From positions 463 through 64,462 of the forward strand of contig DATLBE010000007.1 in assembly GCA_035527075.1 (NCBI GenBank): a stretch of 64,000 nt of DNA. The letters run 5' to 3'. Source of the DNA: Nevskiaceae bacterium (GTDB lineage Bacteria; Patescibacteriota; Microgenomatia; PFEM01). A program made the translations under genes and the position numbers. Shown here piece after piece: positions 49,634-63,991 of the stretch; position 1 is the stretch's first letter, and the number at the start of each line of letters is the position of its first letter. The notes under the pieces were generated by a model. That model did not search any database. It saw only the letters and a list, made by a program, of their open reading frames with translations, and was not told the origin of the DNA.

Positions 49634-50272
49634 TTAAAGCGCTCCTTTGCCAGAAATCATTACCCAAGGGGTTTTTAAAATAATGATGACGTCTTGAAAA
49701 ATTGATTTTTGTCTGGCATATTGGGCATCCATTTTTACTCTTTTGTCAAAATTAATCTCACTCCGACCGGTCACCTGCCAATAACCGGTAATGCCTGGTT
49801 TAACTTTCAAAAGTTGTTCAACATACTTTTTTGTCTGAGGATAAACTTTTTGTTGTTCCTTCAACTCATCTGGATAATAAGCTCGCGGGCCAACAATGTT
49901 CATTTCTCCTTTTAGGATGTTAAATATCTGGGGTAATTCATCTAAAGAAAAACGCCTCAATAGGCGCCCAACTTGGGTAATTCGGGGGTCGTCTTTCAAT
50001 TTATAACTGCCCTTTTTGTATTGTTTGTAAATTCGACGAAATTTGGGGTCGGTTCTAAGTAATTGGTGAGCATTGGCAATCATCGAACGAAATTTAAACA
50101 TCCGGAACATTTTTTTATTCTTTCCCACTCTTTTGGGCGTAACAGCAAAAATTGGCCCAGCTGAATCAATTTTAATCAGAACCGGCACAATCATAAAAAC
50201 CGGGGCAAAAACAATTAATAAAATAATTGCCATCAAGATATCAAGGATTCGTTTGACAGTATCGTAAGGCAT
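49634..50272 (-). CDS. Undecaprenyl-phosphate sugar phosphotransferase (bacterial sugar transferase, PglC/WbaP C-terminal-domain type)
   Basis: The KFRSM...DELPQ...NILKGEMNIVGPRA motifs are characteristic of the small monotopic phosphoglycosyl transferases. Confidence 0.88.
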   Translation of the reverse strand: MPYDTVKRILDILMAIILLIVFAPVFMIVPVLIKIDSAGPIFAVTPKRVGKNKKMFRMFKFRSMIANAHQLLRTDPKFRRIYKQYKKGSYKLKDDPRITQVGRLLRRFSLDELPQIFNILKGEMNIVGPRAYYPDELKEQQKVYPQTKKYVEQLLKVKPGITGYWQVTGRSEINFDKRVKMDAQYARQKSIFQDVIIILKTPWVMISGKGAL

Positions 50273-50275
50273 AAT

Positions 50276-51391
50276 TTAAAGATACTCAGTTTTTCTTTTA
50301 TCTTTCAAGAGTTCAACTAATTTCTTGACATTTTGGGCTTTGTCTCTTCTACAAATCAAAACTGCATCGGTGGTATCAACAACAATTAAGTCCTCAACAT
50401 CAATCACCGCGATTAGTTGATCGTCAAATTGAATCAAATTATTTTTGGCATTTAAACCAATAAACTCGCCCTTCTTACCATATTTAATCACCACATTGCC
50501 ATCTTTGTCTTTTTTAGAAATGTCATAAATAACACTCCAATCACCGATATCATTCCAACCCATTTGGGCAGGAATCATCAATGCCTTTTTCACTTTTTCC
50601 GAAACCGCCACATCAACAGAAACATTTGGAGCTTGCAAGTAAGCAGCTTTCATCACCGATTGAAACTGGCTGGTTCCTAAAACTTTCTCAACTTTGTTTA
50701 AGGCCTTAAAAGTGGTTGGTGAATGTTTCTTTAAAGCCGCCAAGAAAAAGCTGGCTGACCAAACATACATCCCTGAATTCCAATAATAGTCTCCCGTGGC
50801 CATAAATTTTTTAGCCGTCTTGTAATCTGGCTTTTCGACAAATTTCTCTAGCTTAAAGACGGGCACACCATTAATTTTCCTGATAATTTTTTTAGCGTGA
50901 ATATAACCAAGACCGGTGTGGATTCGGGTTGGTTTAATACCGACCGCCACCAAGGTTTGATAGTCAAATGCGGCTTGAGCCGCAGCCAACTCTACTTTTT
51001 TAAAAATTGCTTCCTTCCTCACTAAATTGTCAGCCCAAAAATTCATGACCACTGCTTGAGGGTCTTGTTTTTTGGCCATTAAAGTGCCTAAACCACAGGC
51101 AATGGCTGTATTACGACGCATTGGTTCCCAAACAATGTTTTTTTCTGGGATAGCGGGTGCTTCTTTTTTTATTTCCTGAGCATAATCACGGCTGACAGTC
51201 ACAACAATCATTCTTTCAGGGATGACTAATCCTTTCAACCGTTTGACTGTTTTTTGAAAAAGCGTATCTTTACCCAAAAGGCGAGAAAATTGTTTGGGTG
51301 TTTTATTGCGTGAGCGGGGCCAAAGTCTTGTCCCGCCACCACCACAAATAATCAAGGCATACAAGTGTTTTTTTAACTCATTTTCTGCCAT
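50276..51391 (-). CDS. Mannose-1-phosphate guanylyltransferase-like nucleotidyltransferase
   Basis: N-terminal LIICGGGGTRLWPRS (G-x-G-T-R nucleotidyltransferase motif) and a C-terminal left-handed-helix-less MPG-like domain. Confidence 0.75.
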   Translation of the reverse strand: MAENELKKHLYALIICGGGGTRLWPRSRNKTPKQFSRLLGKDTLFQKTVKRLKGLVIPERMIVVTVSRDYAQEIKKEAPAIPEKNIVWEPMRRNTAIACGLGTLMAKKQDPQAVVMNFWADNLVRKEAIFKKVELAAAQAAFDYQTLVAVGIKPTRIHTGLGYIHAKKIIRKINGVPVFKLEKFVEKPDYKTAKKFMATGDYYWNSGMYVWSASFFLAALKKHSPTTFKALNKVEKVLGTSQFQSVMKAAYLQAPNVSVDVAVSEKVKKALMIPAQMGWNDIGDWSVIYDISKKDKDGNVVIKYGKKGEFIGLNAKNNLIQFDDQLIAVIDVEDLIVVDTTDAVLICRRDKAQNVKKLVELLKDKRKTEYL

Positions 51392-52470
51392 TTTTCCTCC
51401 ACCAATCTTTTCATCCTTTTGACAAATTCTTCTTGGCTAAACCGCAGCGCATTGGTGCGACACTCCTTTGGATCAAACTTTAAATTTTTAAATTTCTTTA
51501 TCGCACCTATTAATTCTTTCTCACTTTGTTTTTCAAAAAATAAACCGGTTTTACCTTCAATAACGGTTTCTAAAACGCCACCGTTTCGATAAGCAATCAC
51601 CGGCCTGCCACAGCTTTGTGCCTCTAACGGTACTAAGCCAAAATCTTCAACCTGCGGAAAGATAACCGCACGACATTTTTGATAGTAGCCTAAAAGTTGG
51701 GCATCTGTCAACTGGCCAAGAAATTGAACGTTTTTTTTGGCCATTTTTTTTAATTTTTTCGCTTGTTGGCCAACGCCGACAATTTTTAAAGGTAACCCCA
51801 ACTGGTTAAAAACCCTAACCACCAAGTCAACTTTTTTGTAAGCTACCAAGCGAGAAACAACCAAAAAAAAATCAGCTGGTTTACCATCAATACCCGGCCG
51901 CCACTTTTCAGTCTCCACTGGCGGGTAAATCACCTTTGAATCTCGGCGATAATATTTTTTAATTCTTTTTTGAACATTTTTGGAAATCGCCAAATAAACA
52001 TCAGGCCGTTGACTGGCAATCTTATCCCATCTACGCAGATAAGCAACAATTGGTTTAGTTAAAAACCTCAGGGTTTTATTCTGAAAATAATCCTCATAAT
52101 CACTCCATAAATAGCGTGTAGGTGTCAAGCAATAACAAAAATGAAGGGTTTGGGGTTTGGTGACAATTCCTTTTGCCTCAGCGCTGGTGACTGAAATGAC
52201 AACATCATATCCGCCAGCTGGCGGATCGAAGTTAAAACTTTCAAAAGCCAAAGGCGTCAGCCAGGGATAAATTTCATGGTGCTTTTTGGCCAAAGGAAGT
52301 TTATTTAAAAAAGAGGGAATGACCCTAAATTTTTTTGCCCAAAGAGCAGTTTTTGGATTATAAACAGCTGTAAAAAGGGGCGCTTCCGGCCAAATTTGAT
52401 GTAAAGCCAAAAGGACTCTTTCTGCCCCACCCCATTTATTGACCCGGTCATAAACTAAAGCAACTTTCAT
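51373..52470 (-). CDS. Glycosyltransferase family 4 (GT-B)
   Basis: The C-terminal E-x7-E region (GLVPLEAQSCGRPVIA) is typical of GT4. Confidence 0.8.
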   Translation of the reverse strand: MKVALVYDRVNKWGGAERVLLALHQIWPEAPLFTAVYNPKTALWAKKFRVIPSFLNKLPLAKKHHEIYPWLTPLAFESFNFDPPAGGYDVVISVTSAEAKGIVTKPQTLHFCYCLTPTRYLWSDYEDYFQNKTLRFLTKPIVAYLRRWDKIASQRPDVYLAISKNVQKRIKKYYRRDSKVIYPPVETEKWRPGIDGKPADFFLVVSRLVAYKKVDLVVRVFNQLGLPLKIVGVGQQAKKLKKMAKKNVQFLGQLTDAQLLGYYQKCRAVIFPQVEDFGLVPLEAQSCGRPVIAYRNGGVLETVIEGKTGLFFEKQSEKELIGAIKKFKNLKFDPKECRTNALRFSQEEFVKRMKRLVEEKWQKMS

Positions 52471-53564
52471 TTCGATCCGTTCTTATAAACTTCAATAGTT
52501 TCCCTTGCCATTTTTTGCCAACTGTATTTTTCAACTTGTTGATAACCCAGTTTAACCATTTTACTTTTAAGTTCTTTGTTGCCAACAACTTTTTTTATTT
52601 TCTTTGCCATTTCGCCAACATCCAAGGGATTAAAATAAACAGCCGCCTGACCGTAGACTTCTGGCAAACAGGAAGAGCTTGAGGCAATCACTGGCAAACC
52701 AACAGCCATTGCCTCAAGGCCTGGTAAACCAAAACCCTCAAGCAATGAAGGAAAAACAAACGCTTCAGCTTGTTGATAAAGAGCGACTAAATCTTTATCC
52801 GGAACAAAACCAGCCAAAGTCACTAATTTTTCTGCTTTAAGCATCTTAATTTTCTTTTTAAATCTTTGCCAAAAAACATTCCTGGCACAAACAACTACCA
52901 ACCGAAGATTGATTTTTTGGACTGCCCTGACTAGGCTGACAACATTTTTATGAGGATAAAGACTGCCGGTGTAAATGACAAAAGGTTTTTTAATTTTGTA
53001 TTTTGTCAACAAATTTCCAATCTTAAATTTGTCATCTACGCCTTCATAAGTAACCACAATTTTTTCTGGTGGTAAATGATATCGCCTTGTCAGCTCTGTT
53101 TTTGTCCATTGGCTGGGAACAATAATTCTTGCCGCTCGATTAACGACTAACCAAACTAAAAAGCGATAGTTTAAAAATTTAAACCAATAAAACAGCGGCC
53201 ATTTTGTCGTTGTTCTTACTCCTCGTGATTGATGTTTAATCAAATCATGGATAGTCACAATTTGTCGACCCCACCAAAAAAAAGGCACATTAAAATGAGG
53301 AAAATGGACCAAATCCGGCTTTAGTTTGATCAGTTGAAGCGGTAAAAAAAACTGCTCTTTTAAAGAATAGTGTCCGTAATCAGCCAAAACTTTTTTAAAT
53401 CTTGGATTGGCAAAATGAACCTTTTGATAATATTTTTTTCTTAACAAAACCCAATAATTATTCTTTTTGTCTTGCTTTTCAATTTCCTTAACTAAATTTA
53501 AAACATACCGGCCAATGCCGGCATGTTTTAAACCATACATCCTACCATCAATAACAATTTTCAT
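52467..53564 (-). CDS. Glycosyltransferase family 4 (GT-B)
   Basis: GFGLPGLEAMAVGLPVIAS motif. Confidence 0.75.
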   Translation of the reverse strand: MKIVIDGRMYGLKHAGIGRYVLNLVKEIEKQDKKNNYWVLLRKKYYQKVHFANPRFKKVLADYGHYSLKEQFFLPLQLIKLKPDLVHFPHFNVPFFWWGRQIVTIHDLIKHQSRGVRTTTKWPLFYWFKFLNYRFLVWLVVNRAARIIVPSQWTKTELTRRYHLPPEKIVVTYEGVDDKFKIGNLLTKYKIKKPFVIYTGSLYPHKNVVSLVRAVQKINLRLVVVCARNVFWQRFKKKIKMLKAEKLVTLAGFVPDKDLVALYQQAEAFVFPSLLEGFGLPGLEAMAVGLPVIASSSSCLPEVYGQAAVYFNPLDVGEMAKKIKKVVGNKELKSKMVKLGYQQVEKYSWQKMARETIEVYKNGSK

Positions 53565-53568
53565 TTTT

Positions 53569-54486
53569 CTACTTAAGATAATGGTGTAAAATTCTAAAAA
53601 AGCCTTTCAATTTGATTCCGAAAATCACCAACCAAGTAAGCCAGTGAGGATATTTATCGCGGTAAAATTTTTGGTAAAAAATTTCCATGGCTTTAATTGA
53701 AGCTTTGGCTGTTTTAATTCGGGTCTGACGACTCGCCGGTGAGATTTTCTCTGATTCTTTTCTTAATCCGGAGCTGGCACCTTTATAATGCACCAAAAAC
53801 GGTTCAGGATAAAACATCACCTGCCAACCCGCTTGTTTAATCCGATAAAAATAGTCTAAATCTTCGCCATAAAAAAAATATTGATCATCCCAAGGGCCGA
53901 CTTGATTAATAACTTCGCGGCGAACAAACATAAAAGTGCCAAAACCAGCGTCAATTTCATGAACCTTGTTAAGATCAAGGTAAAACTTGTGATATTGACC
54001 AAACGTTTTACTTTTAGGAAAAAGTTTCTCCAGACCAAGAAAATAGGAAATTGAGGGCCAAGGAGTTGGAAAACTCCGATGACAATCAGGGTCCATCCCA
54101 CCAGAAACCAGCATAGTTTTAGCTGTGGCGGCGCCCACTTTAGGATTTTTATCCATAAAAGTTATCATTTTTTTAAAAGCATCTGGTTTCACTTTTGTAT
54201 CAGAATTTAGAAACAAAATATACCTGCCTCTGGCAATTTTCAGGCCGAGATTATTACCGCCGGAAAAACCAAGATTAACCTTACTTTCGATTAATTTTAC
54301 CCACGAAAATGCTTTTTTAATCATGGCGACCGAGCCGTCAGTTGAAGCGTTATCGACCACAATGGTTTCATACTGAAAACTATTTTTTTCCGATTTTAAA
54401 ACTGATTGCAAACAATCCCGGAGTAAATCCTTGGTATTAAAATTTAAAATAATGATTGATAAATCAACTTTTTTGGCCACCAACAA
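53569..54486 (-). CDS. Glycosyltransferase family 2 (GT-A)
   Basis: IIILNFNTKD...VVDNASTDGS and DxD-like motifs. Confidence 0.85.
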   Translation of the reverse strand: MLVAKKVDLSIIILNFNTKDLLRDCLQSVLKSEKNSFQYETIVVDNASTDGSVAMIKKAFSWVKLIESKVNLGFSGGNNLGLKIARGRYILFLNSDTKVKPDAFKKMITFMDKNPKVGAATAKTMLVSGGMDPDCHRSFPTPWPSISYFLGLEKLFPKSKTFGQYHKFYLDLNKVHEIDAGFGTFMFVRREVINQVGPWDDQYFFYGEDLDYFYRIKQAGWQVMFYPEPFLVHYKGASSGLRKESEKISPASRQTRIKTAKASIKAMEIFYQKFYRDKYPHWLTWLVIFGIKLKGFFRILHHYLK

Positions 54487-55666
54487 CCTCCTGATAAACT
54501 TTGTCTAATTTTTGGGCACTTTTTCGCCAACTATACTTCTTTTTAACTAAATCTTTAGACTTTCTACCAATCTTTTCAATTAAAGTTTTATCCTGTAAAA
54601 TCTTGACTGTTTTCTCTGCGAGCTTGGCAAAATCATCAGCAATAAAAATCTCCTCACCATCTTTAGCTTCTATCCCCTCTTTTCCTTGCCGGGTGGTCAC
54701 AATCGGTAAGCCCGAAGCCATGGCTTCAAAAAACTTAGTTCGACTTCCTCCTCCACTTCTCATTGGCGCTACCGACACCCAGGCTTGTTGATAGGCTTTC
54801 CTAGACTCTTTAATCTCCTGAACCAAGACATCATCTGATTTTAAACCAGACAGAAATTCGGGTGCATGCCGACCAACAATCCAGAGTTTTGCTTTTGGAA
54901 CTTCCTGCTTAATTAAAGGCCAAACTTTATCAATCAAAAGCCTTGCCCCCTCTCTGTTTTCCATCCATTTAAAATTGCCAACTCCGAAAAGAACAACTGA
55001 CTCTTTTGCCCGAGAGAAAATTTTTTTACTAAAATAAACTTCATCAACACCGTTAGGAACAATCTCTACCTTTAATTTTTTAACAAGACTTTCCATCAAC
55101 TTCTTATCCTCCTGAGACACAGCCACCGTCATATCCGCTTTCTTCCAATAAAGTTTCTCCCAAAATTTTAATTTAACTACATCAATCCACAAAAAAGGCT
55201 TAATGAAAAACCAAAACCAGGGTAGAGCCTTTACAAAATGTTGATAAACTCGATATTCTATTGTCTGATCAACTAGAAGAATGGGAACATCTGTTTTGGG
55301 TACCTCAGGCATCAAATAAAAAGTCTCCACATGAATTAAGTCGTAGTCATTCCTCTCTAGTTCTTGCCTAATTATTTCTTTGACTTCTCTGGAAAAATAA
55401 ATCGAAGCTAAGAATGGATAAAGACTAAAACCAGTAAAAAAAATGTTTATTGGCGCCCAAGCTTTTCGTCTTTTGAATAACTTTATTTGCTTACAGTAGG
55501 GTGAGAGTTTTTTTAAAAATCGCTTCTCTTTATCGTCTCTAATAAAACTAAACAAAGTAATCTGATGTTTCTTACCTAAATTTTTGATTAAATTAAATGA
55601 CCGCGTCTGGCCTCCCGAATAGGGCGGATAAGGGAAATATGGGGTAAGCATTAAAACTTTCATCAA
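54464..55666 (-). CDS. Glycosyltransferase family 4 (GT-B)
   Basis: FEAMASGLPIVTT C-terminal GT4 motif. Confidence 0.8.
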   Translation of the reverse strand: MMKVLMLTPYFPYPPYSGGQTRSFNLIKNLGKKHQITLFSFIRDDKEKRFLKKLSPYCKQIKLFKRRKAWAPINIFFTGFSLYPFLASIYFSREVKEIIRQELERNDYDLIHVETFYLMPEVPKTDVPILLVDQTIEYRVYQHFVKALPWFWFFIKPFLWIDVVKLKFWEKLYWKKADMTVAVSQEDKKLMESLVKKLKVEIVPNGVDEVYFSKKIFSRAKESVVLFGVGNFKWMENREGARLLIDKVWPLIKQEVPKAKLWIVGRHAPEFLSGLKSDDVLVQEIKESRKAYQQAWVSVAPMRSGGGSRTKFFEAMASGLPIVTTRQGKEGIEAKDGEEIFIADDFAKLAEKTVKILQDKTLIEKIGRKSKDLVKKKYSWRKSAQKLDKVYQEVVGGQKS

Positions 55667-57135
55667 TCTTGAACGTTGGATTCTAATGAAAAAATTACAT
55701 ACTGGTTAGTCCGTTTAACCATTGGATAATTTTCAACCATGTATTGCCCAAATTCCAAGCTTTCCTCGAATTTAGTGGTGACATAAACAGTGGCTCCCAA
55801 ATTTTTGGCATTTTCAATCGATTCAGGAATGTTTGGAAAATATGAGGCATAACCACCAGTCCAACCATAGCGATTAGTATTGTAAAGAAGGGTGACATCA
55901 TTAGAATCACCAGTTAAAACTAAAGCATCTTTAGGAAATAACTGGTCAACTGCTTGCCCAGCCAAATCAACACCCCCTTGGATTAAATAAAAGCCTCGTA
56001 CTTCAAACCAAGAAAAACCGAGCATAAAAAGAACGCAGGCTAAAACCGCGATAAAACCAAGTAATCGAGAAAATTCTTTCCTCGCTCTGACTAAAAGCCA
56101 ATAAACGCTCTTGGCTAAAAAGACGGCGGCAATGGGAATAAAAGGAATTTGATAATAATCATGAGTAACGTTGCCGGCAGCCAAAACACATACATAAGCA
56201 AAAAACGAGACTAACCATAGGTGAAAAAACCAGCCTTCTTTTTCTTTTGGTTTTAAAATCAAACCAAAGACCAAAAGAGGTAACCCCCAGTAACCTAAAA
56301 TTAATTTACCTATTCTTTCAGCAAAAATCCATCGGAAAAAAGCAGGTCGAAAACGAATCCCTCCCTGATTAAAAAGCCAATCATAACGAGGAACTCCTTC
56401 AGGAAAACGAGCAATCCAAAGGCGCCAAGCTACAAATGGCAAAATCGCCAAAACAGAAAAAAGCCATAATTTTTTTTGTCTGAATAAATTAAACTGATAC
56501 CTCCGCCAAACTAGATAAAACATGGGTAAAGCCAGAAAAAGCGGAAAAGTTTTAAGAGCCAAAGACCAGGAGGTAAACAATAAGGCAAAAATAAACCTTT
56601 TAACTGAGTCATCTTTTGCCAGCCAACGATTAAAAAAATACAGCATACCCATGCTAGTAAAAAGCATCATTGGTTCTGGCAAAATTACCCTAGAATAAAA
56701 AATACTGTAAGGTAAAACGGCAGCAAAAAAAGCAGCCAAAAGACCAATCCATTCATTAAACAATTCTTTTACTAATAAAAACAGAAAAATTATCATTCCT
56801 AAAGAAAAAAGAATTGAAACCAAACGAGCCAAAAATTCTTGGACACCAAAAACTCGATAAAGACCAGCGACAATTGTCTGGTAAATTGGCGGTTCTACTA
56901 AAAAGAGACGCTTGGGATTAGGAGTGCCAATGTGAAGTGAAGTCATATTATCAATTCGGGGCTGGAAAAAATCAAATCCTTCTTTAATAAAGTTTCTAGC
57001 CACGGCAGCTGTGTCTGCTTGACGCCAGGAGTGATGATCGGCTAAGGGAATATTAATTTTATAAAGTCGCAAAGCCAATGCCAATAATAAAATTAAAAAC
57101 AGTGAAAACCATTGGTTAAAAATTGTTTTTTTCAT
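55663..57135 (-). CDS. GT-C fold membrane glycosyltransferase (ArnT / protein O-mannosyltransferase PMT-like, GT39/GT83-type)
   Basis: Multi-TM protein with the first-loop signature DHHSWRQADTAAVARNF characteristic of the ArnT/PMT family. Confidence 0.65.
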   Translation of the reverse strand: MKKTIFNQWFSLFLILLLALALRLYKINIPLADHHSWRQADTAAVARNFIKEGFDFFQPRIDNMTSLHIGTPNPKRLFLVEPPIYQTIVAGLYRVFGVQEFLARLVSILFSLGMIIFLFLLVKELFNEWIGLLAAFFAAVLPYSIFYSRVILPEPMMLFTSMGMLYFFNRWLAKDDSVKRFIFALLFTSWSLALKTFPLFLALPMFYLVWRRYQFNLFRQKKLWLFSVLAILPFVAWRLWIARFPEGVPRYDWLFNQGGIRFRPAFFRWIFAERIGKLILGYWGLPLLVFGLILKPKEKEGWFFHLWLVSFFAYVCVLAAGNVTHDYYQIPFIPIAAVFLAKSVYWLLVRARKEFSRLLGFIAVLACVLFMLGFSWFEVRGFYLIQGGVDLAGQAVDQLFPKDALVLTGDSNDVTLLYNTNRYGWTGGYASYFPNIPESIENAKNLGATVYVTTKFEESLEFGQYMVENYPMVKRTNQYVIFSLESNVQD

Positions 57136-58591
57136 TTTCTTCTTCCGCCAGCTGTCGGACCAGCCTTAATCTAGTGATGCCAACCAAAATTCCCATTAAA
57201 ATCCAGAAGATAAAAGCAACTTTTGAAGCTACAAAAACATCAATAAAAACAGCATTAGCAAACATGCCAAGAATGGCACCACAGATACCCACTACTAATG
57301 CCTTCTCCAAATTTAATTTTACCTGAGTGAAAAAACTTAGCACTTGCCTACCAATCTCCAGGAATATTAAAAAGAAGGCGCCAAAACCCAGCAACCCAGT
57401 TTCCGCCAAAGTTCGCAAATAATCATTGTCTGTGGCTAAAGTAACTGAAGAATAACCAGTTCCCAAAAAGGGATTCTTAGCAAAAGCCCTTAAAGCACGA
57501 GGCCACTCAACTTTAAACCTAATCGCACTAGAATATTCAACCGCCAATTCTGTCGTCGGTTTCCATTCTTCCACCGCTGCCGCAGTGGCCACTTTTGTTG
57601 GCGTCGGTTTAAGAACAACGGGAGCTTCTTTAGAAAATGGCATTGTTTTCTTTTTAACAACAGGCTTAGTTGGAGTAGGCTTTAAAACTAAAGCCACTTC
57701 TCTTTCTTTTCTCGGAATCCAGCCTGTCAGGCCAGAAAGATCAATATCAAAAGTAGCCGCATATCTTTGACTAATATCCGACGATAAAAGCATAAAAACC
57801 ACACTTAAAACCAAAACCGGCCCAAGCCAACGATATTTTTTCAAACCAAGTAAAACAAAAGTAACGGCTACCAAATAGGCAACAAAAGAAACCCGAGAAG
57901 CAGTTAAAATCAAAAGATAAAAAGCCAGAAAAGCAACAATAAACATCGCTATTTTACTTAAACGACTCTTCAGACCAATAATAAACCCAGCTGATAAAGC
58001 CAAAAACAAAACTAAAAAAGCCGCTAAGTCATAATGACCGGCAAAAGTGGAGCTGATTCTAGCCCATTCATCAAGTTGTAATAACATACCTTTAGAAAAC
58101 TCTACATTCATGGTTGAAACTACTGGCCAGTTGAAAAACTTTTGGCCAATCCCATAAACAAAAATCCCAATTGTGGTCAAAAATAAAACTAAACCGTAAT
58201 TTTTAACATTTTTCAGGCTTCTGATAGAAGCCAAGGTAACAAAAAACAATGACATGTATTCAATCCGGCGCAAAAAATGAAGTAGAGCAATATGAGGAAC
58301 AACGTGTTTAGTAATGAAGATTGCACTAACCAAAGATAAAGCTCCGACTAACCAATAGAGAAGAATAAATTTTCCCACTTTATTCTTCAAAGTAGAAAAA
58401 CCTTTAAAAATTTCTAAAACAAACCAGATAAATAAAACTGAAACGACAAGCAAATCTTCAATTCTAATGGCGACATAAGTCCCCGGTACATTGAATAAGG
58501 GAAACTTGGGGTAAAGCGGAATAAACAACATTAAAGCTGCCACCGCTAAAAATAAAATGTTAATTCTAGGCAATTTTAAACGCTTCAGCAT
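57116..58591 (-). CDS. O-antigen ligase / Wzy-like polymerase family membrane protein with an internal Pro/Thr/Lys-rich repeat
   Basis: 10 or more TM helices with a large loop, as in the O-antigen ligase family. Internal VLKPTPTKPVVKKK...VVLKPTPTKVATAA direct repeat. Confidence 0.5.
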   Translation of the reverse strand: MLKRLKLPRINILFLAVAALMLFIPLYPKFPLFNVPGTYVAIRIEDLLVVSVLFIWFVLEIFKGFSTLKNKVGKFILLYWLVGALSLVSAIFITKHVVPHIALLHFLRRIEYMSLFFVTLASIRSLKNVKNYGLVLFLTTIGIFVYGIGQKFFNWPVVSTMNVEFSKGMLLQLDEWARISSTFAGHYDLAAFLVLFLALSAGFIIGLKSRLSKIAMFIVAFLAFYLLILTASRVSFVAYLVAVTFVLLGLKKYRWLGPVLVLSVVFMLLSSDISQRYAATFDIDLSGLTGWIPRKEREVALVLKPTPTKPVVKKKTMPFSKEAPVVLKPTPTKVATAAAVEEWKPTTELAVEYSSAIRFKVEWPRALRAFAKNPFLGTGYSSVTLATDNDYLRTLAETGLLGFGAFFLIFLEIGRQVLSFFTQVKLNLEKALVVGICGAILGMFANAVFIDVFVASKVAFIFWILMGILVGITRLRLVRQLAEEENEKNNF

Positions 58592-59438
58592 AAGTTTGTT
58601 TAAGATAATTGTTGCCGGTCAGCCAACCAACTATTAACGAAATGGCTGCCTTTAATTTTAACATCATCTTAAGAATTGACAGCTGCCAAGAAGGACAATG
58701 TTTTTTATAAAAATAAATCAAACCGCGATAAATATTAAGAATCGGATCCTTCCGACCCGCCTTAGAACTTCCCCTGCCCAAGTGAATAATTTTGGGGCCT
58801 GGATAAAACATCACTTTGTAACCTGCTTTTTTTATCCGATAACACCATTCGATTTCATCCATATACATAAAAATGCCCTCATCCATAAGCCCTGCCTTTT
58901 TAATCACCTCTGGGCGAACCATTAAAGCCGCCCCCATAACCCAGTCAACCTCTTTTGTCTGGTGATAAGAAGTTCTCACTAAATTACCCAACCAATGTTC
59001 GAAAAAAAGCATTATGGCACTGACCAGTAAATTAGGAAAGGACCCAGCCGAAGGTTGAGGCGTTCTATCGGGATTAAGAAGTTTACAGCCAACTACACCA
59101 ACTTGCGGATGTTTATCCATAAATTCAGCCATTTTTAAATGAGCGTTATTCAAAATTACTGTATCTGAATTAAGCAACAAAAAATATTCCCCTTTGGCTT
59201 TCTTCATGGCCTGATTATTAGCGGCCCCGAAACCGAGGTTTTTTTTATTTTTGAGCAACACCACCATGGGAAATTTTTTCTCGATCATTTCTATTGAACC
59301 ATCGGTTGAACCATTATCAACCACAATAACTTCAAAACTACCTTGTTCTGGCAGCAAACTTCGCAAACACTTTACCAGAAGCTTTTTGGTATTCCAATTG
59401 ATGATAATAACGGAAACTTTTACTTTCTTTTTGACCAT
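58566..59438 (-). CDS. Glycosyltransferase family 2 (GT-A)
   Basis: VSVIIINWNT...VVDNGSTDGS motifs. Confidence 0.85.
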   Translation of the reverse strand: MVKKKVKVSVIIINWNTKKLLVKCLRSLLPEQGSFEVIVVDNGSTDGSIEMIEKKFPMVVLLKNKKNLGFGAANNQAMKKAKGEYFLLLNSDTVILNNAHLKMAEFMDKHPQVGVVGCKLLNPDRTPQPSAGSFPNLLVSAIMLFFEHWLGNLVRTSYHQTKEVDWVMGAALMVRPEVIKKAGLMDEGIFMYMDEIEWCYRIKKAGYKVMFYPGPKIIHLGRGSSKAGRKDPILNIYRGLIYFYKKHCPSWQLSILKMMLKLKAAISLIVGWLTGNNYLKQTYAEAFKIA

Positions 59439-60010
59439 AGAAAAGAAACCAGACTAACAAATTGATAAAAAATAATAACCGCCAACCCCACAATTCCCGT
59501 CCAAACTAACAGACGTGCCCAAATCGGTGAACGAACATAATGAAGAATAATTTTGGTGCTGAACCTCTTACCTTCGATTGAAAAATCAACTTCGGGTTTT
59601 TTAATTTGGTTACGGTAGGCTTCGTCTTGGCTAGGAATCCAACCGCTGATAAATAAAGATTCCCGGAGCGGATGAACCAATTCTTCATAAAAACTACTAT
59701 GAATCGTATCAACAATAGTTTCCAAAGCATATTCAGGGGGATGATTAAGGCGATAAGTAAATAAAGGAATACTTAAAAAAGTGGATTTTTTAAATTCTTT
59801 GGCATAAAAATCTATCACTTCTTGACGAGACAAATTAGTGTAATAAGCAACATAAATGGCAGGAATCTGACCGCTATCGACTGGCTCGGTCGATCTTAGG
59901 GAGTTGGGTAAAACAGGAACACTCGGTTCTGGGATAAGAAGGCAAACAACTCCTAAAACATAAATCGCTAAAACAACTATCAACAAACTCTTGGGGTTAA
60001 TTTTTTTCAT
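59420..60010 (-). CDS. Hypothetical bitopic membrane protein
   Basis: 196 aa with N- and C-terminal TM helices. Confidence 0.4.
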   Translation of the reverse strand: MKKINPKSLLIVVLAIYVLGVVCLLIPEPSVPVLPNSLRSTEPVDSGQIPAIYVAYYTNLSRQEVIDFYAKEFKKSTFLSIPLFTYRLNHPPEYALETIVDTIHSSFYEELVHPLRESLFISGWIPSQDEAYRNQIKKPEVDFSIEGKRFSTKIILHYVRSPIWARLLVWTGIVGLAVIIFYQFVSLVSFLWSKRK

Positions 60011-60020
60011 TGTTTAATTC

Positions 60021-60662
60021 TTACTGAAATAATCTGGCTCGGCCAAGTCTATAGTGGAAATCTCTCAGTTTTCTTTCACCTATTTCCTGTGCAGGTACGC
60101 CACCGACAATTTTCCCTGGGGCTACATCTTTAGTCACTATCGCTCCTGCAGCCACCACCGCCCCTTTACCGATTTTTACACCCGGCAGAATTATGGCTCG
60201 AGGACCAATGAAAACATAATCACCAATCTCTACCGGTTCTTCGGTTACTTTAAACTCTGAATCATGAATTTGATGCTCGGAATTGTAAATTAAAACTTGC
60301 GAAGCAATGGCCGTATGACTACCGATTTTCAATTTTGCCCGGCCGTCAAGAAAACAATGGTCGCCAATAATCGTGTCATCACCAATAACAATATTTTGGG
60401 GCTGAAAAAAATTGGCCACCATATGAATGGTTGAACCCTGACCTATTTTTATACCGGCTAAACGGTAACAGAAATGGCGAAAACAGTGGCAAGGCAAATA
60501 ACCCACCCAGCGCAAAAGCATCAACTCAAAATCCAAAAAGCAATTTTTAATTCGATTAACAATCTTGGGCAACGCTTCTGCTAAAGTCAAGGGCCGCCCG
60601 GCTTTATCTTTAAACATTTTCACCTCCTGTTCTTTCCAATATTTTAAGTGTTTCCTGAGCAC
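60021..60662 (-). CDS. Hexapeptide-repeat (left-handed beta-helix) sugar O/N-acetyltransferase
   Basis: Repeated [LIV]G-x-x-x-x hexapeptides ([15 protein letters not shown]...[31 protein letters not shown]). Confidence 0.85.
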
Positions 60663-61719
60663 ATTTTTTCCAGCTAAATTGGCGACTTTGTTTGAATCCT
60701 TTTTTGATAAGCTTTTCTCGGTTTTCCATCGCTGCCCTTATTCCTCTGGCAATATCTTTAACATCATAAGGGTTAACCACCGCTCCCGCCTCCCCCACTA
60801 TTTCCGGCAAACTACCGGCATTTGAAACAACCACCGGTGTGCCACAAGCCATTGCCTCAATTGCTGGAATACCAAAACCCTCCCAAAAAGACGGCATCAC
60901 AAAAACCTCGGCGCCAGACATAAGCACTGGTACATCTCCTTCTTCAATAAATCCGGTAAAAATCACTTGCTTCCCTAACCCCAATTTTTTTACTTTTTCA
61001 AAAATCGTTTTAAACATCCATCCTTTGCGCCCAGCCACTACCAGCTGCAAGTTTTTCTCACCCAGACGAGCAAAGGCTTGCAGCAAACCCTCAATATTTT
61101 TGTTCGGTTTTAACGTGCCCAAAAAAAGAATGTAATTTTGTTTTATTTTATATTTTCTCTTAACCTCCTCAATTTTCCCTCTTGCCTCTTGCTTTTTGAA
61201 TTTTTCTTTATCGTATCCCGGATAAGTAATCTTAATTTTGTCCGGCTCCAAACCGTAGTATCTAATTATATCATTCTTAGTCGATTTGGAGATAGCTAAG
61301 ATATGAACCGCCCGCTTAATTGAGAGTAAGGTCCAAAATTTAAGTTTGGCCAAAATCGGCTTAGTAAACTGGTGTGGATATCGCAAATAGCCTAAATCCA
61401 TAATAGACACCACTAGCGGCGCAGGAGTAAACAGTGGACAATAATGACCTGGATTAAAGACTAAGTCAGGCTTGGGTCGCTGTTGAAACAAAGCGCGGGG
61501 CAGACCAAAAAAATTCCAAAGTCGGGGCGGGCCAACAACGCGATAGTGCCAATTTTTTCGCTCTTTAGGTAAATCAGGAAGAGGTAAACTCGGTAAATAA
61601 ACATGGTATTGATTTTTATAATCCAGCTGGTAAAGCGCTTTGATTAGTTCAAAAGCATACTGATTTGAACCAACTCGGTTTTTAACATTAGCTTCGTAGC
61701 CAATCAAACTAACTCTCAT
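60610..61719 (-). CDS. Glycosyltransferase family 4 (GT-B)
   Basis: [20 protein letters not shown] motif. Confidence 0.8.
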
Positions 61720-61721
61720 TT

Positions 61722-62864
61722 TTATTTTTGCCCCGTCGCTTCCTCATAAATTTTTAGGGTTTCTTTAGCTGCCTTTTCCCAAGAAAATTGCTTAACTTGA
61801 TTCAAGCCTGCTTTGATTAGTCTTTCTCTCTTTTCTATCGCTTCCTTTATGCCTCGAGCGATATCATCTGTATCAAGAGGATTAACTAAAACCGCGGCCT
61901 TGCCCGCCACTTCAGGCATGCTTGAGATATTGGACGTAAGCACTGGACAACCACAAACAAAAGCTTCTAAAATCGGAAAGCCAAATCCTTCATATAAAGA
62001 AGGATAAACCAAACAAGAAGCACCAGAATAAAGCCCCGGTAAATCTTCACTTGGAACATAGCCCGTGAATTTGATATTTGATATTTGATATTTGATATTT
62101 GAACTTTCTATATCTCCCCAGCCAAACTTGCCCACAATAACCAAACTAAACTCTGGATTATCACTTTCAAACCTTGAAAAGGCTTTTATTATGCGCTTAA
62201 AGTTTTTGCGCGGTTCAAGAGTGGCCACACAAAGAAGATATTTGCCTTTTATTTTATATTTCTTCTTCACTTGCTCTACCTCTTTTTTAGAGGCTCTTTT
62301 AAAATCTTCAAAAGCCGCTTCATAAACCACCCGAATTTTTTTTGTCGGAATTTCCAATAACTTAACTGCGTCTTTTTTAGTCGTTTCAGAAACAGCAATA
62401 ATTAAATCGCACTCATTTTTGACCAAAGCCAACCGCCTTTTCATCACCGCGGCAATTTTGGGATGAGAAACATTGGGGTGTCTCATAAAACCAAAGTCGT
62501 GAATGGTAGTCACCTTAGCGGCCTTGGTGGGCGGCTGAGTCCAATCAGAGGAATGAAAAACGTCAATCTTACCAATCAATTTTTCTACTGGCAAAAACCG
62601 AAACTTATTCCCCAAAATTTCAGCCAACGTTGGGGGGAAAGTAATGATTTTTGAGTTAAAGTTTTTATTGATTTTCTTAACTTCAGCGGCAAATTCTTGA
62701 AGAATATTCTTCAACCTTAATGAGCTGCCAAATAGGATATAGTCATTTTTTTTGTCAATCCTGGCTAAGGCCTTAACTAAATTCCGAGTATAAAAGGAAA
62801 CACCAGTACCATAAACTATTTGGCTGATATCAATGGCTATTTTCATTGTTTTTGATAAACCCAA
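61722..62864 (-). CDS. Glycosyltransferase family 4 (GT-B) containing a heptanucleotide tandem repeat
   Basis: EGFGFPILEAFVCGCPVLTS motif. The coding region contains the (TTTGATA)x4.7 repeat at 62070-62104. Confidence 0.8.
   Translation of the reverse strand: MGLSKTMKIAIDISQIVYGTGVSFYTRNLVKALARIDKKNDYILFGSSLRLKNILQEFAAEVKKINKNFNSKIITFPPTLAEILGNKFRFLPVEKLIGKIDVFHSSDWTQPPTKAAKVTTIHDFGFMRHPNVSHPKIAAVMKRRLALVKNECDLIIAVSETTKKDAVKLLEIPTKKIRVVYEAAFEDFKRASKKEVEQVKKKYKIKGKYLLCVATLEPRKNFKRIIKAFSRFESDNPEFSLVIVGKFGWGDIESSNIKYQISNIKFTGYVPSEDLPGLYSGASCLVYPSLYEGFGFPILEAFVCGCPVLTSNISSMPEVAGKAAVLVNPLDTDDIARGIKEAIEKRERLIKAGLNQVKQFSWEKAAKETLKIYEEATGQK
62070..62104. repeat. Heptanucleotide tandem repeat (TTTGATA x4 perfect plus 1 imperfect) inside the GT4 CDS
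   Basis: Read directly: TTTGATA TTTGATA TTTGATA TTTGATA TTTGAAC. It encodes SNIKYQISNIKF on the minus strand. Confidence 0.9.
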
Positions 62865-63991
62865 AGCGGAATTTGATTAAAATTAACCTCTTTTATTTTA
62901 ACAAAATTATTATCAGTTAACCAAAAAGAAATTTTTTCATCAGGGTCAAAAAGAGGCACCAAATAACAAATGTAGAAAATTTTATTTCTGTCAACTAAGT
63001 TTTGGCTACTCGTCCCCATTGCTAACGGAATTTTGTTTTTGGCATAGTAAGTATAGGGCCAGTGAGAGCTTAAAGAAGGCAAAAGTGCTACTGAATTTGC
63101 AATCTCTTGTTTTTCAATATAGCTCACCACTCCCCGCCAGTCTTCTCGATGAAAATAAGGGTTAGTATAGAAAACAGCGAGAGAAATCAAATTAACAGCC
63201 AAAATAAAGAAAATCAAAATCTGCCGTAAGCCAGAATTCGAAAACCGGGTTATCCCCAAACTGAGCAATAAATAAAAGGCAGGCAAAACTAAAAGCAAAC
63301 GGAAAGGCTGGTAATTAGGGATAAAAATAGAAATCAGCCAAGCAGAAAGGATTGGCACAACTAGCCACAACAAAATTGTTAATTGCCTTTTGTCAATTGT
63401 CAATTTTCTCTTCTGAAAAAATCCTCTAGCAATAATCACTCCATAAGCCAAAAACAAAACTCCGGCAATGACAGCATAAAGTTTTTTATTAAAAATTGTA
63501 ATTCTGCCAATAGAAAACTTAATAAAAGTCAACGGCAAAGCTTTCGTGAAATTGACATTAACCAATTTCCCCCACTCCGGCAGAGCCTGAATTGCCTGGC
63601 GGCCTACTTGGATTTGAGTCAAAAACATTGGCAACCAAGGAAGGAAAAATAAAAGACATAAAAACTGAAGAATCAAAAACGGGGCGGCTATAGCTTGAGC
63701 CAAAAGAACAAAAAGACCAAAATAATCAGAATAAAGAAGCAAAACTGTTGCCAAAACATAACCTATTTTTAGCGGTCGAGTGTTATTTTTCTTTTGGCAA
63801 CTGATTAACCTGACAAAGAAGTACATTGATAAGGCAGCAAAAAACGTGGTCATCGCATACATCCTCGCCTCTTGGGAATAATAAATGTGGAATGGGGCCG
63901 TACTCATCAAAAGGGCTACGATAATTGCCGATTGCCTATTGATATGGACCATTAATTTATAAACAACAAAGACTGTTGCTATACCAAACAA
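62843..63991 (-). CDS. GT-C / ArnT-PMT-like polytopic membrane glycosyltransferase, probably N-terminally truncated by the window edge
   Basis: About 11 TM helices. The FHIYYSQEARMY loop resembles the GT39/GT83 family. The ORF reaches within 9 nt of the window end, so the true start is likely beyond it. Confidence 0.45.
   Translation of the reverse strand: MFGIATVFVVYKLMVHINRQSAIIVALLMSTAPFHIYYSQEARMYAMTTFFAALSMYFFVRLISCQKKNNTRPLKIGYVLATVLLLYSDYFGLFVLLAQAIAAPFLILQFLCLLFFLPWLPMFLTQIQVGRQAIQALPEWGKLVNVNFTKALPLTFIKFSIGRITIFNKKLYAVIAGVLFLAYGVIIARGFFQKRKLTIDKRQLTILLWLVVPILSAWLISIFIPNYQPFRLLLVLPAFYLLLSLGITRFSNSGLRQILIFFILAVNLISLAVFYTNPYFHREDWRGVVSYIEKQEIANSVALLPSLSSHWPYTYYAKNKIPLAMGTSSQNLVDRNKIFYICYLVPLFDPDEKISFWLTDNNFVKIKEVNFNQIPLWVYQKQ

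What the first reader, a model, noticed from the sequence alone, without database searches (positions are those of the whole stretch)
62070..62104. Heptanucleotide tandem repeat inside a GT4 glycosyltransferase gene, a candidate phase-variation switch
(TTTGATA)x4 plus one imperfect unit lies within ORF 61722-62864, encoding SNIKYQISNIKF just before the C-terminal catalytic GT-B domain. Because 7 is not a multiple of 3, slipped-strand gain or loss of one unit would frameshift and truncate the catalytic domain. This is the classic contingency-locus mechanism used to vary surface glycans. It sits in a 16-kb glycan locus with 8 GTs, consistent with on/off variation of one sugar addition. The copy number is modest, so the switching frequency may be low.
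Basis: seen in the sequence. Interest (0 to 1): 0.55.

Follow-up and report, generated by a model that had tools for sequence, protein, structure and literature searches.

The report
Heptamer microsatellite inside a glycosyltransferase gene
A perfect 7-base repeat (about 5 copies) sits in a floppy loop of a sugar-adding enzyme gene of an ultra-small (CPR) bacterium; gaining or losing one copy would switch the gene off, but every relative sampled keeps such repeats in frame, so it looks like a latent mutational weak point and not a proven on/off switch.

Summary
A perfect (ATTTGAT)x4.86 tract lies at 62069-62102 and is the only notable short tandem repeat in the 64-kb window. It lies inside a GT4 glycosyltransferase gene (61722-62846, minus strand; aa 249-260) within a confirmed glycan locus. 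Gain or loss of 1-2 units truncates the protein before its EX7E catalytic motif.

The tract is not private to this genome. Orthologues in at least five other Patescibacteria lineages carry perfect heptamer arrays at the same loop with different units (TCAAATG, TCAAACC, CAATCAG, ATCAATC, GCAATCA). Arrays cluster at five permissive loops of the GT4 fold. Among perfect tracts of at least 4 copies, period 7 overwhelmingly dominates. This indicates repeated slippage and unit turnover.

Support for an actual phase-variation switch is weak:
- An independent strain assembly (99.7 % identical) has the same copy number.
- About 75 intragenic arrays were all in frame. The one natural frameshift differs from its intact allele by 2 nt, not by a unit.
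- Ten alleles of a well-sampled relative share one length.
- Arrays also occur in housekeeping genes such as thymidylate synthase.

Best reading: a slippage-born heptamer microsatellite tolerated in a disordered loop, acting as a latent low-frequency frameshift site. Adaptive switching is possible but unproven.

The parts
62069..62102 (-). Perfect heptanucleotide array. It reads (TCAAATA)x4.86 on the coding strand and (ATTTGAT)x4.86 on the + strand, and encodes SNIKYQISNIKF (aa 249-260).
61722..62846 (-). GT4 (GT-B, retaining-type) glycosyltransferase gene, 374 aa, from the ATG at 62844-62846 to the TAA at 61722-61724.
   Evidence: Pfam Glycos_transf_1 5.9e-33 and Glyco_transf_4 1.7e-11. 100 % identical 374-aa proteins P0001/P0121. 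AF2 model with pLDDT 90.4. Foldseek top hits are MshA, PglA, BshA and PimB'.
62088..62126 (-). The only low-confidence segment of the structure model (aa 241-253). It is the crossover loop between strand 233-238 and strand 258-262. The array supplies the second half of the loop and the start of the strand.
62118..62132 (-). Conserved GKFGW motif, the upstream anchor of the variable segment (site 1).
   Evidence: alignment A1
62055..62069 (-). Conserved FTGYV motif, the downstream anchor. The last partial repeat unit runs into it.
   Evidence: alignment A1
61965..61991 (-). EX7E catalytic motif (EGFGFPILE, aa 286-294). It is lost in every out-of-frame state.
   Evidence: The motif's role is established knowledge of GT4 enzymes.
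62047..62049 (-). TGA stop reached after +1 or -2 units (products of 268 and 261 aa).
61967..61969 (-). TAG stop reached after -1 or +2 units (products of 290 and 297 aa).
60610..61719 (-). Downstream GT4 paralogue. Its ATG lies 2 nt after the stop of the array-bearing gene. Premature termination 245-325 nt upstream would remove this close coupling (inferred polar effect).
63374..63405 (-). Decayed heptamer array (AATTGAC AATTGAC AAAAGGC AATTAAC AATTTTG; peptide KRKLTIDKRQLTIL) in the upstream membrane-protein gene. The 90 %-identical relative L002 annotates that gene as PMT_2.
49634..63991 (-). Co-oriented glycan-assembly locus: Bac_transf, NTP_transferase, 5 GT4, 2 GT2, PMT_2, Wzy_C, hexapeptide acetyltransferase.

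Best explanation
The tract is a polymerase-slippage-born heptanucleotide microsatellite occupying a structurally permissive, disordered crossover loop of a Patescibacteria GT4 glycosyltransferase. It is one instance of a lineage-wide class. Perfect heptamer arrays with lineage-specific units arise, are homogenised and decay at this loop and at four other loop or linker positions of GT4 genes. They occur less often in other genes.

Purifying selection holds the array at an in-frame length. A slip of 1 or 2 units would truncate the enzyme before its EX7E motif and uncouple translation of the next GT4, and a further slip could restore the frame. It is therefore a latent, probably low-frequency and in principle reversible, ON/OFF mutational site.

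Shown: the array, its uniqueness, the frame consequences, the recurrence across orthologues, the unit turnover and the loop location. Inferred: that slippage is the generating process, that past expansions passed through out-of-frame intermediates, and that the switching rate is low and not demonstrably selected for.
For: (1) The tract is perfect, 34 nt long and unique in the window.

(2) The same loop in orthologues carries perfect arrays with other units: (TCAAATG)4.86, (TCAAACC)4.57, (CAATCAG)5.0, (ATCAATC)4.86 and (GCAATCA)2.71. L003 has a degenerate array and the 90 %-identical L002 has none. At protein level, 12 of 120 homologues have runs of at least 8 aa that equal a three-frame reading of a perfect heptamer, against 0 of 120 shuffled proteins (shuffled maximum 7 aa).

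(3) Arrays are scattered over at least 2 deep clades, and sister lineages can have different units.

(4) Turnover is recent:
- L083 and L084 are 100 % identical genes that differ only by a 45-nt in-frame indel between 15-nt direct repeats within the array.
- The P0099 cluster shows replacement of one unit.

(5) Period specificity: among perfect tracts of at least 3.5 copies, period 7 gives 8 and 23 in two sequence sets, period 3 gives 6, and all other periods give 0. [quoted passage not shown]

(6) Arrays map to five loop or linker segments of the fold. The window's array overlaps the only segment of the AF2 model with pLDDT below 50.

(7) The in-frame state is maintained:
- About 75 intragenic arrays are all in frame.
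- L001 has the same copy number as the window.
- 10 alleles of P0099 and 3 of P0073 show no length change.

(8) Arrays also lie in thymidylate synthase, dCTP deaminase, TatD and glutamate dehydrogenase, so the generating process is not specific to contingency genes.
Against: - Array density is about 3-fold higher in glycan-related ORFs than in other ORFs (14.3 vs 4.8 per 100 kb, Fisher p = 0.005). This is what a selected phasome would show, although the sample is centred on GT genes.
- Arrays are not enriched in intergenic DNA, as a purely neutral process filtered by selection in coding sequence would predict.
- Reaching 4.86 in-frame copies from a 1-2-copy seed requires out-of-frame intermediates, which implies either high slippage rates or tolerated loss of the gene.
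- The orthologue is reduced to its N-domain in two Levyibacteriota MAGs, so the gene can be dispensable.
- Consensus assemblies cannot reveal minority OFF subpopulations.
Confidence: 0.55

Rival explanations
1. True contingency locus. The heptamer array is maintained by selection for mutability and mediates reversible, stochastic ON/OFF phase variation of one sugar addition to a surface glycan, as pglE does in Neisseria.
For: - The tract is a non-triplet perfect SSR above the conventional threshold (PMC2651432).
- The frameshift abolishes EX7E.
- It lies in a glycan locus.
- There is a precedent of a heptanucleotide repeat in the PglE glycosyltransferase (PMC7157529).
- Perfect arrays recur with unit turnover across orthologues.
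- Some orthologues carry several arrays in one gene, 4 in L081.
- Arrays are about 3-fold enriched in glycan ORFs.
- The only genuine frameshifted GT gene in 85 loci breaks at an A-run/heptamer tract, and an intact allele exists elsewhere.
- Contigs end or join at arrays in three cases, which hints at population heterogeneity.
Against: - Copy number is the same in the independent strain L001 and on 3 other contigs.
- No whole-unit ON/OFF pair was seen anywhere.
- About 75 of 76 intragenic arrays are in frame, versus the one third to two thirds OFF that is usual for classical phase-variable genes (my own knowledge).
- The L015 frameshift is a 2-nt change, not a unit slip.
- There are at most 5.6 copies everywhere, so slippage rates are expected to be low.
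- Arrays occur in essential housekeeping genes.
- Most orthologues have degenerate arrays or none, so the arrays are not conserved as a feature.
Confidence: 0.3
2. Recombination joint. Arrays of the same heptamer unit at loops and at the interdomain linker of different GT genes act as short homology patches. Because a 7-nt period offers every reading-frame register, they would allow in-frame exchange or deletion of GT segments or domains.
For: - (TCAAATA)n occurs at equivalent loops in many diverged GT4 genes and in GT2 genes.
- 13 arrays sit at the interdomain linker.
- In L085, a GT4 N-terminus is joined to a TrmD C-terminus exactly at an array.
- In L049 and L052, the orthologue ends at the linker position.
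- The L083/L084 indel lies between array copies.
Against: - The loci with (TCAAATA)n were ascertained through that very sequence.
- The unit is no commoner than composition-matched permutations in an independent collection.
- The window has only one array in 64 kb, so it has no partner.
- The L085 junction may be an assembly chimera.
- 27-39 nt is short for homologous recombination.
Confidence: 0.05
3. Sequence-specific function of the repeat itself: a structural or ligand-binding 7-aa peptide repeat, or a cis-acting DNA or RNA element such as a protein-binding iteron, pause site or RNA structure.
For: The 3' end of the array encodes the start of a conserved strand (NIKF-TGYV). A 7-aa periodicity is seen in many homologues.
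Against: - Units and peptides differ freely between lineages: SNIKYQI, MSNVKCQ, SNLKPQT, QSAISNQ, QSSIINH.
- The segment is the least confident part of the model.
- The RNA fold is no better than shuffles (z = +0.99) and leaves the array unpaired.
- There is no Rfam match.
- The array is absent from the 90 %-identical orthologue L002.
Confidence: 0.03
4. Chance match or assembly or sequencing artefact.
For: None beyond the general AT-richness of the genome (38.5 % GC).
Against: - The self-match is 27 nt against at most 13 nt for other periods.
- The identical tract appears in an independent ENA assembly.
- Analogous arrays appear in JGI, ENA, Logan and NCBI assemblies.
Confidence: 0.01

Closest known systems
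Neisseria meningitidis/gonorrhoeae pglE: phase variation of a pilin-glycan galactosyltransferase through an intragenic heptanucleotide repeat (PMC7157529)
   Same: A heptanucleotide SSR lies inside the ORF of a glycosyltransferase of a surface-glycan pathway. A unit change shifts the frame.
   Different: - In pglE, switching is demonstrated: ON and OFF phasotypes occur in carriage isolates.
- Here no copy-number variant or OFF allele of the gene was found.
- The window's tract is short (4.86 copies), lies mid-gene in the C-terminal domain, and belongs to an uncultured Patescibacteria lineage.
Haemophilus influenzae heptanucleotide SSRs: 7-bp repeats upstream of hmw1A/hmw2A, and (AATTTTG)14 inside the hmw1a ORF (PMC2651432)
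   Same: The unit is AT-rich and 7 nt long. The intragenic case is associated with a frameshift. The survey threshold of 3 or more units is met here.
   Different: The Haemophilus tracts have 13-38 copies and vary between strains. The promoter tracts modulate transcription rather than reading frame.
[quoted passage not shown]
   Same: [quoted passage not shown]
   Different: Those repeats are G-rich, mostly intergenic and possibly G-quadruplex-forming. The arrays here are A/T-rich, overwhelmingly intragenic, have at most 5.6 copies, and are constrained to in-frame lengths.
Campylobacter/Helicobacter poly-G/C phasomes in LOS, capsule and flagellar glycosylation genes (PMC6321876, PMC8437040)
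   Same: SSRs are concentrated in glycosyltransferase and surface-structure genes of small-genome, host-dependent bacteria.
   Different: Those are homopolymers with experimentally measured high switching rates and frequent OFF states in genome sequences.
Hypervariable 9-mer (PTD) repeat gene of a Gracilibacteria (CPR) genome (PMC6851277)
   Same: A slippage-prone tandem repeat inside a CPR coding sequence that fragments assemblies.
   Different: The unit is triplet-compatible (9 nt), so variation changes protein length and not frame. That locus is long and highly variable.

Membership tests
SSR-mediated phase-variable (contingency) locus | Uninterrupted simple sequence repeat above the length at which slippage is considered likely (3 or more units for heptamers in PMC2651432) | tested here: met
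   4.86 perfect units
SSR-mediated phase-variable (contingency) locus | Repeat positioned so that a unit change alters expression (unit not divisible by 3, inside the ORF upstream of essential residues) | tested here: met
   +/-1 or 2 units give 261-297-aa products without EX7E. +/-3 units stay in frame.
SSR-mediated phase-variable (contingency) locus | Repeat number differs between closely related strains or within a population | tested here: not met
   - L001 (99.68 % identical, independent sample) has the same number, and the identical protein is on 3 more contigs.
- The sample is small (about 4-5 contigs) and no read-level data were available.
- Related clusters (P0073 with 3 alleles, P0099 with 10) also show no length change.
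SSR-mediated phase-variable (contingency) locus | Both in-frame (ON) and out-of-frame (OFF) alleles occur in nature | tested here: not met
   - No truncated allele of this gene appeared among database hits.
- Class-wide, about 75 of 76 intragenic arrays are in frame.
- The one ON/OFF pair (L015 and P0184) differs by 2 nt, not by a unit.
SSR-mediated phase-variable (contingency) locus | Measured high-frequency, reversible switching | not testable with these tools
   This needs reads, cultures or single-cell data.
SSR-mediated phase-variable (contingency) locus | Gene acts on a surface or interaction determinant | tested here: met
   It is a GT4 within a locus holding Bac_transf, Wzy_C, PMT_2, GT2 and GT4 genes. 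The function is by annotation only.
GT4 glycosyltransferase (GT-B fold, retaining type) | Pfam Glyco_transf_4 N-domain plus Glycos_transf_1 C-domain above the gathering thresholds | tested here: met
   44.9 and 114.2 bits against cut-offs of 28.5 and 26.4
GT4 glycosyltransferase (GT-B fold, retaining type) | Two-Rossmann GT-B fold resembling solved GT4 enzymes | tested here: met
   AF2 pLDDT 90.4. Foldseek hits to MshA, PglA, BshA, PimB' and GlgM with TM 0.65-0.76 and E down to 5e-20.
GT4 glycosyltransferase (GT-B fold, retaining type) | EX7E motif in the C-terminal domain | tested here: met
   EGFGFPILE at aa 286-294, in invariant columns of alignment A1
Heptameric SSR class over-represented in bacteria (PMC4692102 and its ref. 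33) | Excess of period-7 tandem repeats over neighbouring periods | tested here: met
   At 3.5 or more copies, period 7 gives 8 and 23, period 3 gives 6, and all other periods from 2 to 12 give 0.
Heptameric SSR class over-represented in bacteria (PMC4692102 and its ref. 33) | Predominantly intergenic location (as in Xanthomonas and Nostoc) | tested here: not met
   81 of 87 arrays lie inside ORFs.

The most novel reading that the evidence does not exclude
Patescibacteria/CPR bacteria possess a previously undescribed 'heptamer phasome'. Short A/T-rich heptanucleotide arrays are recurrently seeded at the same permissive loops and interdomain linkers of glycosyltransferase genes. They would serve as low-rate frameshift switches, and possibly as frame-flexible recombination joints, that diversify the surface glycans of these episymbionts against hosts and phages. 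The window's array would be one active member.
Probability: 0.15. Interest if true: 0.8.

Novelty: new member of a known kind. Interest (0 to 1): 0.45.

Why it matters
CPR/Patescibacteria are uncultured, ultra-small, mostly epibiotic bacteria. How they vary their surface is unknown. My searches of the paper library found no work linking them to SSR phase variation.

If the heptamer arrays do switch, they would give these reduced genomes a cheap bet-hedging mechanism for glycan variation. The hypothesis is directly testable in existing metagenomic reads.

Even under the conservative reading the data are useful. They document a period-7-specific, intragenic microsatellite dynamic with birth, homogenisation and decay at fixed structural loops. 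That bears on the long-noted but unexplained excess of heptameric SSRs in bacteria. It also matters in practice for annotation and assembly, because contigs break or chimerise at these arrays.

Tried and rejected
- Searching public contig collections for strain variants found nothing closer than 49 % identity. The tool also used the array's own peptide (NIKYQISN) as a search pattern, so L004-L077 are ascertained for (TCAAATA)n. I therefore excluded that unit from the enrichment and period statistics.
- Unit specificity was rejected. (TCAAATA)4 gives 26 hits in viral contigs, against 24 and 34 for composition-matched permutations.
- The L027 'OFF candidate' turned out to be an array at the 5' end or upstream region of a GT2 gene, not a broken ORF.
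- The L043 'frameshift' is a masked run of N.
- L015 is a genuine frameshifted GT4, but comparison with its intact allele P0184 shows a 2-nt difference in the adjoining A-run, not a unit slip. It cannot be counted as heptamer-slippage phase variation.
- RNA structure and Rfam checks were negative.
- The period-7 tract at 40212-40236 is only a Lys-rich gene tail.
- The 90 % clusters showed no copy-number variants except the L083/L084 in-frame indel.
- A query with only the N-terminal part, designed to rank frameshift-truncated fragments alongside full-length proteins, found none that is unambiguous.
- The 23-26-nt unique inserts splitting the arrays in L002 and L083 were not explained.

Full report
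**Observation.** The window contains a perfect heptanucleotide tandem repeat at 62069-62102: TRF period 7, 4.9 copies, 100 % matches, score 68 (sequence read). On the + strand it reads A(TTTGATA)x4 TTTGA. On the coding (minus) strand it reads (TCAAATA)x4.86. The self-match at offset 7 is 27 nt, whereas no other period from 1 to 12 exceeds 13 nt anywhere in the 64 kb. It is the only perfect tract of 3 or more copies with a 5-9-nt unit. Shuffled sequence yields none.

**Gene and locus.**
- The tract lies in a minus-strand ORF. The true start is almost certainly the ATG at 62846, giving 374 aa, because all homologues begin MKI(G/A)IDISQ.
- Pfam gives Glyco_transf_4 plus Glycos_transf_1.
- An AlphaFold2 model built on 40 homologues is confident (pLDDT 90.4, pTM 0.89). 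It matches solved GT4 enzymes such as MshA, PglA, BshA and PimB'.
- The repeat is gene nt 745-778 and encodes SNIKYQISNIKF (aa 249-260). It lies between the conserved GKFGW and FTGYV motifs.
- This is inside, not before, the C-terminal Rossmann domain, and it is upstream of the EX7E motif (aa 286-294).
- The only segment of the model with pLDDT below 50 is aa 241-253. The array therefore encodes half of a disordered crossover loop plus the start of strand 258-262.
- The surrounding 14-16 kb is a co-oriented glycan locus: Bac_transf, a nucleotidyltransferase, five GT4, two GT2, PMT_2, Wzy_C and a hexapeptide acetyltransferase.

**Consequences of slippage.**
- +1 or -2 units leads to a TGA at 62047-62049, giving products of 268 or 261 aa.
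- -1 or +2 units leads to a TAG at 61967-61969, giving products of 290 or 297 aa.
- All of these products lack EX7E.
- +/-3 units stay in frame (367 or 381 aa).
- The native stop is 2 nt from the ATG of the next GT4, so premature termination would also remove that close coupling. This last point is inferred.

**The tract is not private to this genome.** Aligning the closest 40 homologues shows that the repeat falls in the most variable stretch of the family.
- Many homologues have a 7-aa duplication there, and several peptides are exactly the three-frame reading of a perfect heptamer. Of 120 homologues, 12 have such runs of at least 8 aa, while shuffled proteins reach at most 7 aa.
- DNA retrieved for six lineages confirms perfect arrays at the same codon position with different units: (TCAAATG)4.86, (TCAAACC)4.57, (CAATCAG)5.0, (ATCAATC)4.86 and (GCAATCA)2.71.
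- A 71 %-identical orthologue (L003) has a degenerate five-unit array.
- The 90 %-identical L002 has no array. In its place is a 26-nt GC-rich insert flanked by two AAATATCAAA copies.
- On a family tree built without these columns, perfect and near-perfect arrays are scattered over at least two deep clades and are interleaved with array-less lineages. Sister taxa can carry unrelated units.
- Some orthologues hold up to four heptamer arrays in one gene.
- Mapped onto the window protein, arrays in GT4 genes cluster at five segments: aa 46-61, 80-90, 178-194 (interdomain linker), 224-235 and 244-261. All are loops or helix ends.

**Evidence of recent change.**
- L083 and L084 are 100 % identical across the gene except for a 45-nt in-frame indel. 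It is bounded by 15-nt direct repeats within the array.
- The ten full-length alleles of the P0099 cluster have one length but two variants that differ by replacement of one unit.
- P0078 and P0110 (84 % nt identity) differ by the presence of two 2.86-copy arrays.

**Period specificity.** Among perfect tracts of at least 3.5 copies, period 7 gives 8 in the protein-retrieved sequences. It gives 23 in the other loci after excluding the ascertained unit. Period 3 gives 6 and every other period from 2 to 12 gives 0. This agrees with the literature. [quoted passage not shown] The unit TCAAATA itself is not special: composition-matched permutations are equally frequent in an independent collection.

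**Is it a phase-variation switch?**

In favour:
- The tract exceeds the usual threshold (PMC2651432).
- A heptanucleotide repeat drives phase variation of the PglE glycosyltransferase in Neisseria (PMC7157529).
- Arrays are about 3-fold denser in glycan-related ORFs than in other ORFs (14.3 vs 4.8 per 100 kb, p = 0.005; the sample is biased towards GT loci).
- Building a 4.86-copy in-frame array from a seed must pass through out-of-frame states.
- The orthologue is reduced to an N-domain stub in two Levyibacteriota MAGs with a syntenic locus.

Against:
- An independent assembly of the same species (L001: 99.68 % identity, 21 SNPs, no gaps) has the identical tract. The exact protein is on three more contigs.
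- About 75 intragenic arrays in 85 loci are all in frame.
- The only genuine frameshifted GT gene (L015) breaks at an A-run/(AAATATC)3.86 tract. Its intact allele P0184 differs by 2 nt, not 7.
- The other apparent frameshift (L043) is a masked N-run.
- A search designed to reveal frameshift-truncated N-fragments in the array-rich clade found none that is unambiguous.
- Perfect arrays also sit in frame inside thymidylate synthase, dCTP deaminase, TatD and glutamate dehydrogenase, where ON/OFF switching is implausible.
- No array exceeds 5.6 copies.
- Most orthologues have decayed arrays or none.

**Conclusion.** The tract is best explained as a slippage-born heptamer microsatellite tolerated in a disordered loop. 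It belongs to a lineage-wide birth-homogenisation-decay process. It is a latent, probably low-frequency frameshift site (confidence about 0.55). A selected contingency switch remains possible (about 0.3), since consensus assemblies cannot show minority subpopulations. RNA structure (z = +0.99), Rfam families and a sequence-specific peptide function (lineage-specific units) are rejected.

**Taxonomy.** Close homologues are annotated as Patescibacteria, Shapirobacteria, Pacebacteria and Levyibacteriota. The exact protein is deposited as HUS59888.1 from a MAG labelled Nevskiaceae, which is probably a binning or labelling error.

**Literature.** My searches of the paper library found no paper linking CPR/Patescibacteria to SSR phase variation or heptanucleotide repeats.

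**Limits.**
- No read-level data were available.
- Only about 4-5 contigs of the same species exist in the collections.
- The loci L004-L077 were ascertained through the array's own peptide.

Noticed in passing
window 63374-63405 (minus strand): A decayed heptamer array (AATTGAC AATTGAC AAAAGGC AATTAAC AATTTTG; peptide KRKLTIDKRQLTIL) lies in the membrane-protein gene immediately upstream of the GT4. The 90 %-identical relative L002 calls that gene PMT_2.
   Followed up: partly
L002 about 2850-2900 (gene nt 735-785) and L083 about 1325-1395: In two lineages the site-1 array is split by a unique, more GC-rich insert of 23-26 nt, flanked by array copies. The inserts are GCCCGCTGCGCGGGATTCCTTCGG, which contains a CCCGC/GCGGG hairpin, and TGCGAAGCAACAAGCTCTGCTTA. 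Their origin is unknown.
   Followed up: partly
L065 528-559, 2693-2711, 4379-4398: A Patescibacteria MAG contig has in-frame heptamer arrays inside thymidylate synthase ((TCAAATA)x4.57), dCTP deaminase and TatD. L013 808-828 has one in glutamate dehydrogenase, and L044 5669-5701 has one in a FemAB-family gene.
   Followed up: partly
L085 2675-2703 (protein P0130): A GT4 N-terminus (identical to P0099 for 246 aa) is fused to a TrmD-like C-terminus exactly at the (TAAAAAT)x4.1 array. This is either an array-mediated rearrangement or an assembly chimera. The 7-kb contig has at least 5 further heptamer-period arrays, some of them intergenic.
   Followed up: partly
L049 739-1272 and L052 2031-2567: In two Levyibacteriota MAGs with a locus syntenic to the window (GT4b, acetyltransferase, GT2, Wzy), the orthologue of the array-bearing GT4 is only an N-domain ORF of about 180 aa. 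It ends at the VIYPG/linker position where arrays often sit.
   Followed up: partly
L015 141-178; proteins P0184 and P0185: A natural frameshifted GT4b-like gene has its N-domain in frame 2 and its C-domain in frame 3, both intact. An intact 363-aa allele exists in another sample. The difference is 2 nt in the A-run abutting the (AAATATC) array.
   Followed up: yes
proteins P0187, P0192, P0203, P0210, P0216, P0258, P0286, P0301, P0303: About 13 ORFs of 168-221 aa hold only the C-domain and start with Met inside the linker low-complexity region. Several are on contigs of 5-31 kb. They may be split or OFF alleles, or two-piece GT4 enzymes.
   Followed up: no
proteins P0131, P0319: Contigs begin or end exactly at site-1 arrays. 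P0319 ends inside a perfect (GGAAAAT) array that has no stop in any frame. This hints that assemblies break there, possibly because of length heterogeneity in the population.
   Followed up: no
window 61722-62846; protein P0121 (HUS59888.1): The exact window protein is deposited from a MAG labelled 'Nevskiaceae bacterium' (Gammaproteobacteria), whereas all close relatives are Patescibacteria. Several related loci are likewise labelled 'uncultured Gammaproteobacteria' or 'Bdellovibrionales'. The taxonomic labels are probably wrong.
   Followed up: no
L043 4667-4679: A masked run of 13 N replaces 47 nt and mimics a frameshift in a GT4 gene. L006 shows the intact sequence.
   Followed up: yes
proteins P0091 and P0140: Two alleles in one 90 % cluster differ by a frameshift near the C-terminus (…FSWEKNAKETLKIYKEIV versus …FSWEKTQKRH). 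This is consistent with a change in an A-run. It is unrelated to heptamer arrays.
   Followed up: no
L027 1270-1297: A (GAAAATT)x4 array lies at the 5' end or upstream region of a GT2 gene, which also carries an internal (TCAAATA)x4.3 array. Changes in the first array could affect the start or expression of the gene rather than its frame.
   Followed up: partly
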